A stretch of DNA of 20,000 nucleotides from an uncultured Ignavibacteriales bacterium (GTDB lineage Bacteria > Zixibacteria > MSB-5A5 > GN15 > FEB-12), in NCBI GenBank assembly GCA_964464605.1, contig CAYXJN010000008.1, positions 175,038 to 195,037 of the forward strand. The letters run 5' to 3'. Numbering within the stretch: the stretch's first letter is position 1; the number at the start of each line of letters is the position of its first letter. Made by a program: the position numbers. Shown piece by piece: positions 9,001 to 15,000 of the stretch.

Positions 9001-12000
9001 AAGAATTGCCTGAAACGCATCGCCGCGAGCAACTTCAGAAGGTTCAAGAAAAGCCAAACGAAAGTATTCCATGTTTTCCTCGAACCCTTCTTTTAGCTCA
9101 CGACCGTTCAAGTATGTAGATGGCAAGTCTACTCCATTGTCTCGTTTGCCATTAATAACAAATTTACAGCGAGGCCAAGTAACTGAATTTGCAATCCCAT
9201 GCTCTTCAAAAGCATCTTCACCTTGAAAATGTCCGTTTGAGTTCAATTCGAGAGCCAGCTTTTCGCTGACTTCGTTATTTGTGACGAGTATGCACCTGCG
9301 TTTCCCATCATCATCTGCATTTAGCAATGCGGTTGCATGAAATGTTGTCCCTGAACCAGCAAAAAAGTCCAAAACGATACCTGCTTTTCGTTTTAGCATA
9401 ACAGGCATGAGTGTCTCACAAACTGCATACACAGACTTAGGGTAAGAAAAGCCGGAAGTACCTCCGAAAATGTCTACCAGTAGTTCACTGCCATGTGTGC
9501 TTGCATCGAGAGGCGGCTTGCTCCATACTGTTTTCCATCTCTTTGATTGTTTTTCTTTGAGAGTATAATAGATCTGGATTCCATAATTTTGTCTTGCAGC
9601 GAACAACTTACCAGCCTCAAACTCCGCCTTTGCGCGTGCTGGCCCATAGTGCCAATTTCGCTCAACTCCGAGTTTATCAATCGGCCAAATCGGAATAGAC
9701 GAACCGAGTTTTATCGCATTGCGTTTTTCAGTTTTAGGCAGTGGATTGCCAAAACCGGTTACTTCAAGTGTTTGTTCATTGACGTAGATAGGATAAAATT
9801 GACCCGGCCGTGCAAGTCGTAGCGAATTGTTGCCTGTACGTCGAAGGTTTCTTGTTTCGCCACCGATGGTGGATTCAAGGGGTTGTTCATCAATAATGTC
9901 TTCACCTTGTGGCACAACAAACAGTGCGTATTCGTGACTTCGCGCAAATTCTTCTCCTTGGCGGCCACGCTTATTGTGTTCGATGACTATCGTGAAAAAT
10001 TTGAATCCTTGGAATAACTCTTCAACTAAACACATCAGATGGCCAAGCTCATGGTCGTCTATGGTTATTACTAAGACCCCATCTGGCTTGAGCAGTCGCT
10101 TGCCAAACAATAATCGTTTCTTAATCATTGAGAGCCACTTCGAGTGACGAAAACTATCTGATTTATCTACATAATCGTTGTTGTATTTCCAATCACGTGC
10201 GCCCGTGTTGTAAGGTGGGTCTATATAAATAACGTCTATTTTGCCCTCGTAGCAATAAAGCAAAAGCTGAAGCGCGTGGAAGTTATCGGCGTTGATGAGC
10301 AGGTGCCAAGGTTTGTCAGCCCCGCCTCGCTCAACACGATCCACTGGTTCGAGCGCAGGAAAAATCGGTTCTCCGAAACTCCTAACGACCACAAGGTCGT
10401 CGATATGAAACTCTTTTTGCGTTTGTTTTTGCGTTGATGAACGCTCCACTGAAACGCATATCGCCGTTTTCTTCTGGATGCTTTTAACGCGCCAGAGCTG
10501 GTTTCCAGATTCGCGCTTGAGTGCCACAAGTTCACTTGGCTTCACAGTCAAGTTTGGCAGCCGCACAGTTTCCGGCAGGTGTTCCTCAAAGACGAGCCCG
10601 AACTGCTTAGTCTTTTTTAGTGCCTTTACCTCGGCGGCGATTCCCTTGCGGAGTCGCTCGTCTGGAATTTGCGCAATCAAGTCTTCAATTTTAGCCATTT
10701 ATTTTCATGTACATAGTTGTCAAGGTTGTTTACGAATTGCTCAAGTGTTCCCATTGCCTGCCTTTGACTTTCGCCCGTTTGCCACGAAAATCCTCTCTCT
10801 GTTAAGCCCTGAAAGTGTAAGAATAGCTGAGAGATAGAGGAATTGTCAAGTTGAGCATTTAAGCAGAATTTGGCATCTCGATGCAATTTGTAATTGATTG
10901 TTCCGATACAATTAAGCAAAGTTTGGGAAATTAGGGTAACGGCCAGCGAGCCAATCGAGCAGGGAAGAAATTGATATGGGTCATACGTATTTGGGAGTGC
11001 TTGCAAAAACTCAACTTTGGAATGAGGTTGTTGCTCTTTTACAAAACGAGGCCGACACCGATCTAATTGCCGAAAAGAGCTTCTTAGCCATTGACCAGGG
11101 GCTTTCCAAGATTTCAGACGATGCGGGATTTACCCACGTTCTAACCAACATACTGCAATTCATCGACCAATCAGCTTCCGGCAAGACAACCGACTTCTTC
11201 ACCCAATTTGGGTTGAATGTCAGGGAAATTACATCGCCGCTACACGCGACCGCCGTGCTTAGGGAGACTTCCGACAAGGTTATTCGTCAGGCACGGTGCA
11301 AATCTGATCTGTCTGAATTGGCTCAAAACAGTTTCTCTGAAGCATTTCAAAGTCACCTTTATAATCAACTTCCTACTCTGTTTTCAAATGCGCCGGAGCA
11401 TGTTGAACGGGCTATCAAGAATGTAAGCAAAGGCAAAGAGTTTCAAGCTCTCATGCACGACTTTTATGCCGTTTTCACTCGGCGATATGTCAGTTACTAC
11501 CTAAGCAGGGAGCTTTCCAATCATGTAGGAAGTGGGAAAAAGTTTCGTGATCTAAAAGAACATTCAGATTTTTACAAAGCATTGGATCACCACATTCGAC
11601 AGACGGTGCGGATTTCGGATGATTTCACCCCCGGTTGGTTCGGTAAGGCGAGATTTGAAAAACGGGTCAGTCACGATGATGTCAAAAAGTATGCGTTTGT
11701 AGCGTTTAAGAAAATCCGTTCAGAGTTCAAACGGGGCATGGTCAGTGGCAAACAGTGAACACCTGATATGGTGCGGCACAGACAAGCCGCCTAAGAAGCC
11801 AGTTGATGGAACTTTGGTTCATCTATCGACTGATGGGCCGAACGAAAATGTCAATTGTCGCATTGAGAATATCTCCAACAAGCTTACGCAAAACCTTTCC
11901 CCTATAATCGAAGACATGATTGAAATTGGAAGCTATGTATATGCCGCCGACCAAACGGTAAGTCGAGGAGGCCCGGCTTGGTCGAACAACGGAGCAGATT

Positions 12001-15000
12001 GGACACGGGACTTTCGATTTGTTATTCCAGTCAGGGAACCAGATACATGGAATAAACAGGAAGTTCGAGAATCGCTGGAGGAATTGCTGAGTTTCATGTC
12101 CGGCGACAGTTATCAGTTTGAGTTCACCGAACGGAAATCGATAAGGGCTACGACACCTTATTTTGAGTTTGGTGACAATCCCTGGTTCAGGGCCGATTCG
12201 ATCGTGTTGTTTTCCGGGGGACTTGATTCATTTGCCGGTGCTTTGGAAGAAGTGTTAACTTTGAGGAACAAAACGGTTTTGGTTAGTCATCGATCTGTTC
12301 CAAAAATAGCTAAACGACAATTAGACTTGGCCGAGAAAGTACGGCAACTTGCAGGCGGCAATCAGAAATTGCTTCATGTGCCGGTTTGGGTGAATAAAGT
12401 GAAGGGCTTAACAAAGGACTCCACGCAGAGATCGAGGTCGTTTCTCTTTATGATGCTGGCAGCGAGTATGGGGGAAGTCTTCAAATCGAATACCATTAGA
12501 TTCTACGAAAATGGAATTACGAGCTTTAACTTGCCGTGTAGTGCCCAAGTCGTTGATTCTCGCGCGAGCCGAACTACCCATCCCAAAACACTCAAATTGG
12601 CTTCTGAGTTTTTCACAAAGTTACTCAATCGCCAATTCGTTGTTACCAATCCGTTTTTATGGCATACCAAAACAGATGTGGTTGGAGTAATTAAAAAGCA
12701 CAATCTCGGTTCATTAGTACCATTCACGTCGAGTTGTAGTCATACTCAAACGACAAGCATTATGAACACCCACTGCGGAACTTGCTCGCAGTGTTTCGAT
12801 AGGCGAACGGCAATCATTGCAGGTGGCCTTGCCGATTTTGAGACGGGTGAATCCTACAAAGTTAACTTACCTCTCGATCCAATCAAGGAAGGTCGCGACC
12901 GAACAATGGTTGAGTCAATGGCGCGGATGGCGACTGAAATTGAGGATATGGACGAAGTTCAATTCTGCTCAAAGCTTAACGAAATCGAACGCATTGTCAC
13001 TAACCTCGATCCACCCGTTGACCAAGCTGCTATGCAGGTCATTAGTTTGTACAAACGCCATTCCGCCCAGGTCTTCTCGGTGCTGCGCTCGTTCGTTTCA
13101 GAAAACGCGACGCTTATCCTAAAGAAAAGAGTGCCGCCTGACTCTCTGTTGTCTATGATCGCAGGGTTGATCCAACCGAGTGCTAAAGCGGAAGATAGTC
13201 AAACCATTTGCAAGCTGCCTGATGGAACTACATGGAGTCAACTCTTGGTCGAAATCGTATCCAACGATGCCATTCGAATTAAGGCAAATGGATTTACGAA
13301 ACGGCTCACTTACCAAGACTTGGGTATGCGAGACGGTCGAAAAGGGGACTTTCCAACGGCTCAATGGGAATTGCTGATTGAATTTGCGGAAGGTGGTGGT
13401 ATGTTGAATTGGAAGTCTAAGGGTTCTGACCCCAAGTGGAAAAAGCAAGTAAACGTACTAAGAAAGAAGCTCAAGGACATTTTCGGCCTGTCTGGTGCCC
13501 CGATTACTATGTACCAAAAGCGAGTTGGTTACAAGTGCAACTTTCAGGTAAGCGACTCACGACCGAACCAGGTCAGAAAAAAGATAGATTACACAAATCC
13601 TGAATTTTCATAATTCGATTCCTCAAAAATAGCTCAAATATTCACGATCAATAAATCACCCAGTAGTAAGCAGTTTGTTCCAAAAATCAACCAGCGTCGC
13701 ATTTTTTTTCGCCGAATTCTGAATTTTCACAAGAAAGGGTAAAGACACTTTGGTTTAACTGATTCGGTCAATTTGTGAAACCAACTTCGCTCGAATGGGC
13801 GAACAACGAGCCCCTGACGGGAACTGACCGAATCAGCCGTCAGGGGTTCCTTATTTGTGATGCTTGGTTTTTTGACGTGAAAGAAAATGAATCCCAGATT
13901 GAGAAGTTGGAACCGACTTCGGATCAACTCTCGGTAGACTCGGCGGTCGAGCCATTTGTTATCGATAAGCAGGCGGCCAGTAATCTCTGGGATTTCTTTG
14001 AAATTCTTCGCCGGTGGGCTGAGGAGGAGGAGAAGAATGGGTAGGATTAACGGGCAGACTATCCGGCGAATGCGACTGCGAAGAACCTACGATGCGCGGG
14101 AATTAGCGACAATTCTTGGCGTTCATATCGGTACCGTCCGAACGTGGAGTAAGTCCAGTCTCAAACCCATCGACGTCAAGAATTTCCCGAGGCTGTACTT
14201 GGGTAGAGATGTTAGAGCATTTCTCAACCAAAGGTTCAAGAGTAAGCAGCCAAAGATGCAGGCGAACGAATTGTGGTGCTTCAAATGTCGAACAGCTACC
14301 ACATCGGAATCCAAAAATACAGTCATTGAAATCACTGGAAAGCGGCTGGGGAAATCTTCTTTTCATGTTATGGTGCGTGGATTGTGCATAGTTTGCGGAT
14401 CGAATTGTAGTAAGGCATTTTCTCTGGAGAAAGCAGCAAATGCTTACAATTCCCCCGAAGTGCTGTGGTTAGGGGAAAACCGATTATCAGGATTGCAATC
14501 CCCTAAGCTAAACACTGACTCTGAAAGGACTATTGAAGATGGAAGTTAATGCACGAAATGAGAGAGTGAAAAGGCGTTATATCAATTGGCTTGCTCGCGC
14601 TCAAAGTAAGAACGACAAGACCGTTGAGAGTATGTTGGCGGCAGTTTATTCCTATGATGATTTTACCAAAAATTCAAATTATGAAACATTTAGTGAAAAG
14701 AGAGCCATCAAGTACAAAGACTACCTTGCTACCGACAGGCAAGGGAAAGGGCGACTTTCCGCTACTACAATCAGAAGTCACTTGAAAAACCTACAGGCGT
14801 TTTTTAGATATTTATGTGATCAACCGGGCTATCGGAAGCACATTCGACCGACTGAAATCGCGTTCCTTTCCCCGGACTGCGCTCACGGACAATTGCATCT
14901 TTCGAGCATTCCCAAGCGGACTCCTTCCCTTGAATATGTGAAGCGAATTATTCGGTCGATTGCTGGAACAGATGAAATAGCAATGCGAGACCGGGCTATG

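What a model noticed while it worked through the whole genome (the two positions that open the first line are those of the whole stretch)
10976..13613. Natural two-gene QatB-QatC defence module without QatA and QatD, with an extended QatC
In an integrase-bounded island next to tRNA-Asp/Val, a 622-aa QueC-family protein that matches QatC (g02175) overlaps by 14 nt a 260-aa helical protein that no defence or Pfam model recognises but that starts Met-Gly (g02174); no KAP-NTPase (QatA) or TatD nuclease (QatD) gene is nearby. I read g02174 as a divergent QatB, the substrate whose N-terminal glycine QatC modifies, so that this is a natural minimal QatBC system in which the extra ~200 C-terminal residues of QatC may replace the missing partners. 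It would be a field example of the two-protein core that was shown sufficient in Pseudomonas, and a new QatC architecture.
Evidence so far: PADLOC: g02175 QatC 3e-54 over residues 46-364 of 622 (profile 453 long); g02174 no hit at 1e-3; neighbours are type III RM (g02172, g02173), mad1-like g02177, tyrosine and serine recombinases g02178, g02180. Pfam: QueC 5e-08 for g02175, nothing for its residues 365-622 and nothing below E 0.01 for g02174. Complex prediction g02175+g02174: ipSAE 0.91 (three runs 0.91-0.92), best of 3 controls 0.41; mark reached by 51 of 78 solved complexes and 2 of 108 mismatched pairs; runs share at least 86% of contacts, partner pLDDT at least 87; residues 2-12 of g02174 are in the interface. 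A QatBC crystal structure exists, so the pass may reflect likeness to it. PMC13279940 (abstract and passages, call [...]
(Added by a program. Inside this text positions count along the whole contig: contig position 175,038 is position 1 of the stretch shown here. "Call 12" and the like, gene names such as g00115 and contig names such as C1 are that model's own, and its searches are not shown. The text may have been shortened before it was handed on; [...] marks where a part breaks off. The agent that wrote the report below was given it as the finding of a first reader that could run no searches.)

Follow-up and report, generated by a model that had tools for sequence, protein, structure and literature searches.

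The report
Two-gene Qat-like module, long QatC
A QatC-type enzyme carrying its own DNA-binding tail sits next to a small helical partner that always starts Met-Gly-His; the pair recurs in many bacterial phyla without the other two Qat genes, so it is probably an undescribed self-contained cousin of the QatABCD anti-phage system.

Summary
Window 10976-11758 (+) encodes a 260-aa protein and 11745-13613 (+) a 622-aa protein, overlapping by 14 nt. The PADLOC and Pfam figures reproduce exactly. The genome has no KAP NTPase gene and only one TatD-like gene, on another contig.

This is not a one-off stripped QatABCD. It is one member of a conserved two-gene family: 175 relatives among 185,579 species genomes, and 19 of 151 genomes in its own order. 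In 75 of 80 fetched loci a long QatC-like gene (median 632 aa) directly follows the partner. None of 276 neighbouring ORFs is a KAP NTPase or TatD. Neighbours are recombinases and other defence systems.

The enzyme keeps every QatC catalytic motif, but it forms a separate clade and scores below NCBIfam's QatC cut-off. About 100 of the "extra" residues match the canonical QatB-binding extension. The last 139 fold as an OmpR/PhoB-like winged helix, and other family members carry a different domain there.

The partner shows no detectable sequence similarity to QatB (hhalign 0.6-0.9%). It does share an invariant N-terminal Gly (76 of 76) and an all-helical fold. The predicted complex (ipSAE 0.90, best control 0.00) puts residues 2-11 on QatC. 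Defence is inferred, not shown.

The parts
10976..11758 (+). Partner gene (260 aa, P0001): all-helical protein with a short N-terminal tail; proposed substrate of the QatC-like enzyme
   Evidence: ORF. 77 homologues of 145-283 aa, most about 250-260. AF2 model pLDDT 83 with 11 helices. Predicted complex.
10976..11011 (+). N-terminal tail, residues 1-12 (MGHTYLGVLAKT); family motif M-G-H-x-R-L-G-x-L-P-[RK]-[TS]-x-x-W
   Evidence: In 76 of 76 loci whose match starts at residue 1, the first codon is a start codon followed by Gly: 74 MGH, 2 MGD. Residues 1-8 have pLDDT below 50. Residues 2-11 lie in the predicted interface.
11501..11530 (+). Invariant LSRELSNHVG motif of the partner (residues 176-185)
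   Evidence: L176, S177, R178, E179, L180 and G185 are invariant in 35 sequences. Residues 173-178 and 181-186 contact the QatC loop 266-268 and helices 387-394 in the model.
11745..11758 (+). 14-nt overlap of the two genes (likely translational coupling)
   Evidence: The same short overlaps, or immediate adjacency, occur in the relatives' loci.
11745..12836 (+). QatC-like N-terminal domain plus QueC-type PP-loop core (residues 1-364 of P0002)
   Evidence: PADLOC QatC 3e-54. Solved QatC 9vlk_A 1.5e-27 and 9zee_B 6.7e-26. NCBIfam QatC 203 bits, below the 280 cut-off.
12213..12230 (+). PP-loop SGGLDS (residues 157-162), ATP pyrophosphate binding
   Evidence: S157, G158, G159 and S162 in 69 of 69 and D161 in 68 of 69 long QatCs; all in 7 of 7 canonical ones. 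The motif's role is taken from PMC13279940 and PMC13329287.
12528..12584 (+). QatC-specific long loop and S275-R276-T277-T278-H279-P280 (residues 262-280)
   Evidence: R276 and H279 in 69 of 69; position 275 is T or S in 69 of 69; position 277 is T or S in 67 of 69. Residues 262 and 264-277 touch the partner in the model.
12735..12794 (+). Zn-binding cysteines C331, C344, C347, C350, followed by R353-R354
   Evidence: C331, C344 and C350 in 69 of 69; C347 in 68 of 69; all four in 7 of 7 canonical QatCs.
12837..13193 (+). Helical C-terminal extension (residues 365-483), partner-binding
   Evidence: The first ~110 residues are conserved in most long QatCs. Canonical QatCs end at about residue 464 in the joint alignment. 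Residues 382-430 and 463-475 are in the predicted interface.
13194..13613 (+). Added C-terminal domain (residues 484-622, plus the stop codon): OmpR/PhoB-like winged helix, putative DNA binding
6221..10698 (-). Neighbouring type III restriction-modification system (res 6221-8692, mod 8689-10698), divergent from the pair
   Evidence: PADLOC MTase_III 1.9e-112 and REase_III 1.9e-08; Pfam ResIII and N6_N4_Mtase.
13956..17338 (+). Island backbone: HTH_17/mad1-like gene (13956-14549), tyrosine recombinase (14533-15642), large serine recombinase (15866-17338)
   Evidence: The same order (pair, HTH, tyrosine recombinase, serine recombinase) occurs in L007, L015 and L016, and in part in L006, L008, L009, L010 and L024.
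17299..17544 (-). tRNA-Asp (17299-17373) and tRNA-Val (17471-17544) at the right edge
   Evidence: ARAGORN. tRNA-Val and the phosphoglucomutase gene are conserved in relatives.

Best explanation
The two genes form a self-contained Qat-related module of a distinct, widespread family. The 622-aa protein is a QatC-type PP-loop ATPase. I infer that it binds the 260-aa helical partner 1:1 through its long loop (residues 262-277) and its helical C-terminal extension (382-475). I also infer that it threads the partner's short N-terminal tail into its active site and, after removal of Met1, uses ATP to join an activated carboxylate to the free amine of Gly2. This is the reaction type shown for Cap9 and proposed for QatC-QatB. 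The host has its own QueC and QueD, so a 7-deazaguanine carboxylate is available in principle. However, the active site is of the QatC type, [ST]-R-[ST], not the Cap9/QueC Tyr/Asp type, so the donor may be something else. The added C-terminal winged helix most likely binds DNA, either to sense foreign DNA or to regulate the operon. It is swapped for unrelated domains in other branches of the family, as sensor or effector modules often are. The module is most likely cargo of an integrative element and acts in anti-phage defence without QatA or QatD. Shown here: the gene pair, its conservation, the retained catalytic residues, the invariant Gly2, the genomic context. Predicted only: binding and the fold of the added domain. 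Inferred: the chemistry and the defence role.
For: QatC identity: PADLOC 3e-54; solved QatC chains 1.5e-27 and 6.7e-26. The published QatC motifs are kept across 69 of 69 long QatCs: SGGxDS, D57, D69, R74, R88, W102, R229xR231, E255-N-G, R276, H279, C331, C344 and C350, with C347, R353 and W86 in 68, and P280 and T278 in 67 (motif list from PMC13329287). Conserved pairing: the partner gene is directly followed by a QatC-like ORF in 75 of 80 loci from many phyla. 64 of 69 full-core QatCs (68 loci plus the window) have at least 180 aa beyond the core. Substrate-like partner: start codon plus Gly2 in 76 of 76 loci. Predicted complex: ipSAE 0.90 (0.90-0.91), best of 3 controls 0.00. That mark was reached by 116 of 157 solved complexes and 2 of 215 mismatched pairs. 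Runs share at least 91% of contacts and partner pLDDT is at least 84. Partner residues 2-11 and the invariant LSRELSNHVG region are in the interface. The QatC elements used (long loop, C-terminal helices) are those that bind QatB in the crystal structures (PMC13279940, Results read). No QatA or QatD: none in the genome and 0 of 276 ORFs within two genes of the pair in 80 loci. Three of 5 isolate genomes carrying the pair have no KAP NTPase at all. The short tail fits the lack of QatD, because canonical QatB residues 2-46 bind QatD (PMC13639016, passages). Defence context: RM types I, IIG, III and ISP, CRISPR I-E, III and Cas9, BrxL, GmrSD, HEPN/RES or SNF2-PLD lie next to the pair in at least 18 of 80 loci, and mobile-element genes in 38 of 80. 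Distribution is patchy: 17 of 77 genera in its own order. Winged helix. One relative's tail hits Pfam Trans_reg_C at 1.7e-11, and the same domain follows a receiver domain in another protein. Host QueC and QueD are present.
Confidence: 0.6

Rival explanations
1. The pair serves the integrative element itself rather than the host. It could be an addiction or maintenance module, or a switch controlling excision and integration, with the winged helix acting as the element's regulator.
For: Recombinases, HTH_17 excisionase-like genes, DUF2924 or primase-helicases lie within two genes of the pair in 38 of 80 loci. The order pair-HTH-tyrosine recombinase-serine recombinase recurs. The enzyme carries a putative DNA-binding domain.
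Against: The recombinase types differ between branches: serine with DUF2924, P4-type tyrosine, or the HTH-tyrosine pair. 42 of 80 loci show no mobile gene within two ORFs. The C-terminal domain is swapped between branches while the enzyme-partner core stays the same, which does not fit a fixed regulator of one element. The nearest characterised relatives are defence proteins.
Confidence: 0.15
2. It is a cellular regulatory or stress system unrelated to phages: a transcription factor (QatC fused to a winged helix) whose activity is set by modifying, or being titrated by, the partner.
For: The added domain is of the OmpR/PhoB type, and the same domain occurs after receiver, TPR, sigma-54 AAA+ and HEAT modules in other proteins. 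Only 4 of those 56 proteins match a defence enzyme model, and all 4 are QatC.
Against: Distribution is patchy and horizontal across at least ten phyla. The pair sits in defence and mobile islands. Pseudogenised copies exist in close relatives. All of this is typical of accessory immunity genes, not core regulation.
Confidence: 0.12
3. It is a decayed remnant of a four-gene qatABCD operon that lost qatA and qatD and no longer functions.
For: QatA and QatD are absent. NCBIfam's QatC cut-off is missed.
Against: Both frames are intact. Every catalytic residue is kept across 69 sequences spanning many phyla. The long QatCs form their own clade, separated from canonical QatC by a branch with full support in the quick tree. 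None of 80 loci has QatA or QatD nearby. The partner family has its own invariant motifs.
Confidence: 0.03

Closest known systems
QatB-QatC core of the QatABCD anti-phage system (E. coli NCTC9009, P. aeruginosa; PDB 9zee/9zef, 9vlk/9vll)
   Same: The enzyme has a QatC-type PP-loop with the same N-terminal domain, long loop, Zn site, [ST]-R-[ST]-T-H-P active-site motif and helical C-terminal extension. The partner gene lies immediately upstream and overlaps. The partner is helical, about 250-290 aa, with Gly2. The predicted 1:1 complex uses the same QatC elements. QatBC alone protects against lambda-vir and P1 (PMC13279940 Results; PMC13434339 section 17).
   Different: There is no QatA or QatD anywhere. 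QatC forms a separate clade and scores below the equivalog cut-off. It carries an extra C-terminal winged helix, or another domain in other branches. The partner has no detectable sequence similarity to QatB. Its N-terminal motif is MGH..LP...W rather than MGTS...PLVPPW, and its tail is about 12 rather than 30-90 residues. Its taxonomic range runs from Zixibacteria, Ignavibacteria and Planctomycetota to Alphaproteobacteria, whereas the QatD-seeded survey is dominated by Pseudomonadota (PMC13434339).
Cap9-CD-NTase (CdnD) of type IV CBASS
   Same: A QueC-family enzyme takes the N-terminal Gly2 of a partner protein into its active site and conjugates it in an ATP-dependent step. The substrate is unrelated in fold to QatB, which shows that QueC-type enzymes can recruit different substrates (10.1101/2025.04.06.647259: search listing and abstract only; description taken from PMC13279940).
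   Different: Cap9 is a minimal enzyme of about 185 aa with the canonical Tyr/Asp deazaguanine pocket. Here the pocket is of the QatC type. No CD-NTase or Cap10 is present, and a TGT-like gene lies next to the pair in only 1 of 80 loci.
OmpR/PhoB-type winged-helix DNA-binding domains (Pfam Trans_reg_C)
   Same: The predicted fold of residues 484-622 is a beta-sheet platform, helices and a C-terminal hairpin. The top 22 structural neighbours are all of this family. One relative's tail matches Trans_reg_C at 1.7e-11.

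Membership tests
QatC (NCBIfam NF041925, PADLOC PDLC02214, QueC SSN cluster 2) | PP-loop SGGxDS | tested here: met
   SGGLDS at residues 157-162. S, G, G and S in 69 of 69, D in 68 of 69.
QatC (NCBIfam NF041925, PADLOC PDLC02214, QueC SSN cluster 2) | QatC-specific motifs listed in PMC13329287: D(x)4R...WxR, RxRxxxF/Y, ExG, HP, P(x)4TK, C...CGxCxxC..RR | tested here: met
   D69-R74, W86-R88, R229-R231-F233, E255-G257, H279-P280, P303-T308-K309, C331/C344-G-x-C347-x-x-C350, R353-R354. The spacer between R74 and W86 is 11 residues rather than 7.
QatC (NCBIfam NF041925, PADLOC PDLC02214, QueC SSN cluster 2) | Two Thr in place of the Tyr/Asp deazaguanine pocket (P. aeruginosa T278/T280) | tested here: met
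   The window has S275-R276-T277. The family has T or S at 275 in 69 of 69 and at 277 in 67 of 69.
QatC (NCBIfam NF041925, PADLOC PDLC02214, QueC SSN cluster 2) | Score above the curated equivalog cut-off | tested here: not met
   203.2 bits against a cut-off of 280. A canonical QatC from a four-gene locus scores 304.5.
QatC (NCBIfam NF041925, PADLOC PDLC02214, QueC SSN cluster 2) | Groups with canonical QatC in a tree | tested here: not met
   69 long QatCs and 7 canonical ones lie on opposite sides of a branch with SH-aLRT 100, lengths 1.84 + 2.01. This is the quick tree; the careful search did not finish, and only 7 canonical rows, all from Pseudomonadota, were included.
QatB (NCBIfam NF041924, Pfam PF28083, PADLOC PDLC02211-02213) | Sequence match to a QatB model or profile | tested here: not met
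   No PADLOC QatB hit for the protein or for 35 relatives at E 0.1. No NCBIfam hit. Precomputed PF28083 appears on 0 of 77 relatives against all 120 listed canonical QatBs. hhalign probability 0.87% and 0.62%. The family profile misses the solved QatB chains at E 10, which the canonical profile finds at 4e-31. One weak counter-lead: ESM Atlas rank 16, score 0.87, a cluster with PF28083 on 15% of members.
QatB (NCBIfam NF041924, Pfam PF28083, PADLOC PDLC02211-02213) | N-terminal Met-Gly with Gly2 essential; MGTS motif | tested here: inconclusive
   Gly2 is present in 76 of 76 loci, but the motif is MGH (74) or MGD (2), never MGTS. All 7 canonical sequences read MGTS.
QatB (NCBIfam NF041924, Pfam PF28083, PADLOC PDLC02211-02213) | Long disordered N-terminal tail of 30-90 residues (binds QatD) | tested here: not met
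   The first helix starts at residue 13 of the model. Tail lengths and the QatD-binding role come from PMC13279940 and PMC13639016.
QatB (NCBIfam NF041924, Pfam PF28083, PADLOC PDLC02211-02213) | Same fold as solved QatB | not testable with these tools
   Foldseek (library to 2026-04-08) and VIA-align returned no QatB chain. The QatB structures may postdate those libraries, and no pairwise structure aligner was available.
QatB (NCBIfam NF041924, Pfam PF28083, PADLOC PDLC02211-02213) | 1:1 complex with QatC, N-terminus in the active site | tested here: inconclusive
   Prediction only: ipSAE 0.90, best control 0.00. Partner residues 2-11 touch QatC, whose listed contact residues include 227, 259, 262 and 348-349. 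No measurement exists.
qatABCD system (PADLOC / DefenseFinder definition: four genes) | KAP-NTPase QatA and TatD-like QatD in the operon | tested here: not met
   Absent from the window and the genome. 0 of 276 neighbouring ORFs in 80 related loci.
OmpR/PhoB winged helix (Trans_reg_C), for residues 484-622 | Fold and family-model match | tested here: inconclusive

The most novel reading that the evidence does not exclude
QatC-type enzymes are a general 'N-terminal glycine tagging' immune engine that has recruited at least two unrelated helical substrates: QatB, and this MGH-LSRELSNHVG family. In the long form the enzyme carries its own exchangeable sensor or targeting domain (winged helix here, at least two other large types elsewhere). 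Two genes then do the work of four, and the C-terminal domain decides what triggers or directs the modification.
Probability: 0.3. Interest if true: 0.8.

Novelty: new variant of a known kind. Interest (0 to 1): 0.62.

Why it matters
Three 2026 structure papers showed that QatB and QatC alone can protect E. coli, but nobody knows what QatC attaches to QatB or how that stops a phage. This family is nature's own two-gene version, and it is common in environmental phyla. Its partner has a short tail and a different sequence, and the enzyme has built-in domains that vary between branches. That offers a second, independent system for trapping the modification by mass spectrometry. It would also show which features are essential: Gly2, the long loop and the helical extension are kept, while the long tail, QatA and QatD are dispensable. 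It also explains part of the roughly two thirds of QatC-cluster proteins that a 2026 survey found without qatA or qatD next to them (PMC13329287). Current PADLOC and NCBIfam rules would not call this locus a Qat system, so it is invisible to routine defence annotation.

Tried and rejected

A word-index search with QatC residues 365-622 found only the protein itself and one 65%-identical relative. This understated the family; local phmmer on the fetched loci then showed the extension in most members.

Pfam on 65 C-terminal tails gave one clear hit, L056 Trans_reg_C. The rest were weak HTH-like or nuclease-like hints below cut-off.

ESM Atlas gave nothing for the 20-member tail type.

Promoter and terminator scans around the pair were at chance level: 3 promoter-like sites against 4.7 expected, and 5 terminator-like against 4.3.

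A search for direct repeats found no att-like repeat of the tRNA end. The left flank, 2600-5850, has no DNA match in 20 relatives, so the island's left edge stays undefined.

The weak PADLOC hit of the partner to PDC-S02 (E 0.0024, 2 of 35 members) was set aside as insignificant.

The careful maximum-likelihood search did not finish in time, so the quick tree is reported.

I considered and rejected a decayed qatABCD remnant (see rivals).

Full report
**1. The observation**

Window 10976-11758 (+) gives a 260-aa protein that starts MGHTYLG. Window 11745-13613 (+) gives a 622-aa protein from a GTG start. They overlap by 14 nt.

The database figures reproduce exactly:
- PADLOC QatC 3e-54 over residues 46-364, with no QatB hit for the small protein.
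- Pfam QueC 5.2e-08, nothing for residues 365-622, and nothing for the small protein.
- The enzyme also matches the solved QatC chains 9vlk_A (1.5e-27) and 9zee_B (6.7e-26) over residues 55-361.

The neighbours are as described: a type III restriction-modification pair on the other strand, then an HTH_17/mad1-like gene, a tyrosine recombinase, a large serine recombinase, and tRNA-Asp and tRNA-Val.

The assembly is 2.8 Mb in 18 contigs and 100% complete.
- No KAP NTPase match exceeds Pfam's cut-off (best E 0.02).
- None of the three PADLOC QatB models finds a match.
- There is one TatD-like gene, on another contig. That model also rings in 13 of 14 control genomes, so it is probably the housekeeping TatD.

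**2. It is a family, not a one-off**

The small protein has 77 homologues in the protein collection, 145-283 aa long (most 250-260). None is named and none carries a precomputed Pfam domain.

A scan of one genome per species (185,579 species) found 175 stretches encoding a relative. The best 80 were fetched. They come from Zixibacteria, Ignavibacteria, Planctomycetota, Acidobacteriota, Thermodesulfobacteriota, Verrucomicrobiota, Bacteroidota, many Alphaproteobacteria and others.

- In 75 of these 80 loci the gene is directly followed, usually with a short overlap, by a QatC-like ORF.
- At least two of the five exceptions (L021, L076) end within a few hundred bases of the partner gene.
- Of 69 QatC-like proteins with a full core (68 loci plus the window), the median length is 632 aa.
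- 64 of the 69 have at least 180 residues beyond the core.

So the extended QatC is the family norm. In the window's own order, 19 of 151 genomes (17 of 77 genera) carry the partner family. Some copies are broken by stop codons or split. This is the patchy pattern expected of an accessory gene.

**3. No third or fourth gene**

Clustering the three ORFs on each side of the pair found no universally conserved neighbour. The recurrent neighbours are:
- large serine recombinases (23 loci);
- an HTH_17 gene plus a tyrosine recombinase (13 loci each, in the same order as in the window);
- DUF2924, P4-type integrases, VapE/D5-type primase-helicases and AAA_25 proteins;
- defence genes.

I scanned all 276 ORFs within two genes of the pair in the 80 loci against Pfam. 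None is a KAP NTPase or a TatD DNase at E 1e-6.

By my count of those outputs, at least 18 of the 80 loci have a recognisable defence system in that range. Examples are RM types I, IIG, III and ISP, CRISPR type I-E, type III and Cas9, BrxL, GmrSD, HEPN/RES, and SNF2-PLD or SNF2-NOV_C helicases. By the same count, 38 of 80 loci have mobile-element genes there.

Of five isolate genomes that carry the pair, three have no KAP NTPase at all. One has a strong match on a different contig and one only a marginal match.

**4. The enzyme**

A joint alignment of 69 long QatCs and 7 canonical QatCs shows the catalytic apparatus conserved throughout. The canonical ones came from four-gene loci found in 8 of 401 Pseudomonadota genomes. 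The conserved features are:
- SGGxDS;
- D57, D69, R74, W86, R88 and W102;
- R229-x-R231;
- E255-N-G;
- R276 and H279-P280;
- P303 and T308;
- the four Zn cysteines;
- R353-R354.

These are the motifs a 2026 survey lists as the QatC signature (PMC13329287; opening part and passages read). The two threonines that replace the Tyr/Asp deazaguanine pocket of QueC and Cap9 are kept as [ST]-R-[ST], which is S275-R276-T277 in the window.

The long QatCs are nonetheless a separate lineage.
- In a quick maximum-likelihood tree they sit across a fully supported long branch from the 7 canonical sequences. The careful search did not finish.
- NCBIfam's QatC equivalog scores 203 bits against a cut-off of 280. 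A canonical QatC scores 304.5.

**5. The 'extra' residues**

Canonical QatCs end at about window-QatC residue 464 in the joint alignment. NCBIfam's model aligns through residue 399. In the predicted complex, residues 382-430 and 463-475 contact the partner. Residues 365 to about 470 are therefore the counterpart of the canonical helical extension that binds QatB (PMC13279940, Results read). Only residues 484-622 are truly added.

That piece folds with pLDDT 88 into a small sheet, helices and a terminal hairpin.
- Against 48,161 solved chains, the best 22 matches are all OmpR/PhoB-type DNA-binding domains (BaeR, AdeR, DrrD, VanR, CadC, PhoP, OmpR and others).
- Foldseek gives the same family only weakly, and Pfam gives no hit.

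The assignment is likely but not firm. Three further results support it:
- One relative's tail (L056) matches Trans_reg_C at 1.7e-11.
- A full HMMER scan of 1.84 billion representatives finds the window's domain in 2165 proteins. It lies at or near the C-terminus in the 150 listed.
- Among 57 of those proteins scanned, it follows receiver, TPR, sigma-54 AAA+, HEAT and transglutaminase-like modules. Most have no Pfam domain at all.

Within the long-QatC family the terminal domain is exchangeable. The 64 tails of at least 170 aa fall into unrelated groups of 23, 20 and 9 (the window's type), two pairs and 8 singletons. These types track the core phylogeny.

**6. The partner**

The AF2 model (pLDDT 83) is all-helical, with 11 helices, and only about 12 residues precede the first helix.

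The N-terminus is under strong constraint. In 76 of 76 loci whose match begins at residue 1, the first codon is a start codon followed by Gly: 74 read MGH and 2 read MGD. The family motif is M-G-H-x-R-L-G-x-L-P-[RK]-[TS]-x-x-W. Canonical QatBs read MGTS...PLVPPW and have long Pro-rich tails.

By sequence the two families are not detectably related:
- 0 of 35 members hit a PADLOC QatB model at E 0.1.
- NCBIfam QatB gives no hit, while a canonical QatB scores 128 bits.
- Precomputed Pfam PF28083 (QatB) is on all 120 listed canonical homologues and on 0 of 77 relatives of the window protein.
- hhalign gives 0.87% probability against 7 canonical sequences and 0.62% against 26.
- The canonical profile finds the solved QatB chains at 4e-31 and 6e-29. 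The window family's profile finds neither at E 10.

The only hint of kinship is an ESM Atlas feature match: rank 16, score 0.87, 187 of 256 features, to a cluster in which 15% of members carry PF28083. That is a lead, not evidence. Fold comparison with solved QatB could not be done.

**7. Predicted complex**

I used family alignments for both chains (51 and 35 rows). The pair scored ipSAE 0.90 (0.90-0.91), and the best of three controls scored 0.00.
- That mark was reached by 116 of 157 solved complexes and 2 of 215 mismatched pairs. The tool notes that these counts hold only roughly with my own alignments.
- The runs agree in at least 91% of contacts, and partner pLDDT is at least 84.
- On QatC the interface uses residues 77-89 and 113-122, the long loop 262-277, 348-349 next to the Zn site, and the helical extension.
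- On the partner it uses residues 2-11, 86-137 and 170-200, which include the invariant LSRELSNHVG motif.
- The winged helix is not in the interface.

The QatC elements involved are the ones that hold QatB in the crystal structures. Some memory of those structures may therefore contribute on the enzyme side. The partner, however, has no sequence likeness to QatB.

**8. How it most likely works**

Shown: a conserved, translationally coupled enzyme-partner pair; intact catalytic residues; an invariant Gly2; accessory distribution across phyla; location in mobile and defence islands.

Predicted: a 1:1 complex with the partner's N-terminus on the enzyme, and a DNA-binding fold for the added domain.

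Inferred: after Met1 removal, the enzyme uses ATP to activate a carboxylate and joins it to the Gly2 amine. This is shown for Cap9 and proposed for QatC (PMC13279940, PMC13376578 and PMC13639016; passages and sections read). The donor is unknown even for canonical QatC. The host does have a housekeeping QueC and QueD, so a 7-deazaguanine carboxylate is available.

The short tail fits the absence of QatD, because residues 2-46 of canonical QatB are what bind QatD (PMC13639016). Canonical QatA binds DNA (PMC13279940), so a built-in winged helix could supply a DNA-contact function. That idea is speculation.

**9. What is in print**

My two literature searches (terms QatC, QatB, QatC-like, QueC-like, QatBC, Cap9) returned six relevant papers.
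- The QatD-seeded survey of 631 clusters lists seven operon forms. None of them is qatBC-only (PMC13434339, section 17 read).
- The PF06508 network paper notes that only about 34% of QatC-cluster genes lie next to qatA or qatD, and does not describe the rest (PMC13329287).
- I found no description of a long QatC with a C-terminal winged helix or of the MGH partner family.
- I did not open supplementary tables, and they may list such loci.

**10. Verdict**

It is a distinct two-gene, Qat-related family, best filed as a new variant of a known kind of defence system. The partner should be called a QatB analogue until a structural comparison is made. Defence activity is untested.

Noticed in passing
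window 13194-13610 (QatC residues 484-622); proteins P0082-P0230: The added C-terminal domain belongs to a large family with no Pfam model. 2165 representative proteins match at E 0.001 or better and 415 at 1e-10; the domain lies at or near the C-terminus in the 150 listed. It follows receiver, TPR, sigma-54 AAA+, HEAT and transglutaminase-like modules, or N-terminal regions with no known domain. It looks like an undescribed branch of OmpR/PhoB-type winged helices.
   Followed up: partly
window 13956-14549 and 14533-15642: The 'mad1-like' gene matches only through its HTH_17 region (PADLOC 3e-07, residues 43-95). It travels as a fixed pair with the tyrosine recombinase in 13 related loci. It is more likely an excisionase-like or regulatory partner of the recombinase than a MADS defence component.
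   Followed up: partly
window 15866-17373: The 3' end of the serine recombinase ORF (to 17338) overlaps the 3' end of tRNA-Asp (17299-17373, minus strand) by 40 nt. That would fit integration into the tRNA gene, but no matching direct repeat of 16 nt or more exists elsewhere in the window.
   Followed up: partly
window 1-5850: The left part holds metal-related genes: the end of a HAD/P-type ATPase, a heavy-metal-binding-domain protein, DUF2231, and a weak MerB-like hit. Region 2600-5850 has no DNA-level match in any of 20 relatives, so the variable region may extend well left of the RM genes.
   Followed up: no
L031 9871-10665, L049 and L054 tails, L056 4789-5487: Other long QatCs end in different domains. 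L056 is a clear Trans_reg_C (1.7e-11). L049 and L054 show weak sigma-70 region 4 / HTH_10 hints. L031 shows a weak DpnII-MboI nuclease-like hint (2.6e-4, below cut-off). The 20-member tail type of 150-230 aa has no hit at all.
   Followed up: partly
L053 3-482: In 1 of 80 loci the ORF just upstream of the pair is the end of a queuine tRNA-ribosyltransferase (TGT, 1.9e-57). This is probably the housekeeping gene, but TGT-like Cap10 partners Cap9 in type IV CBASS.
   Followed up: no
G447:C78:8989-9756, G450:C2:706541-707308, G524:C4:398975-399744: Copies of the partner gene in genomes of the same order carry an in-frame stop (TAG or TAA) or are split in two. This suggests ongoing decay in some lineages.
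   Followed up: no
window 19184-19933: A response regulator with a receiver domain and a FleQ-like second half gives weak PADLOC hits to PDC-M60B/C through the receiver domain only. It is probably unrelated to defence.
   Followed up: no
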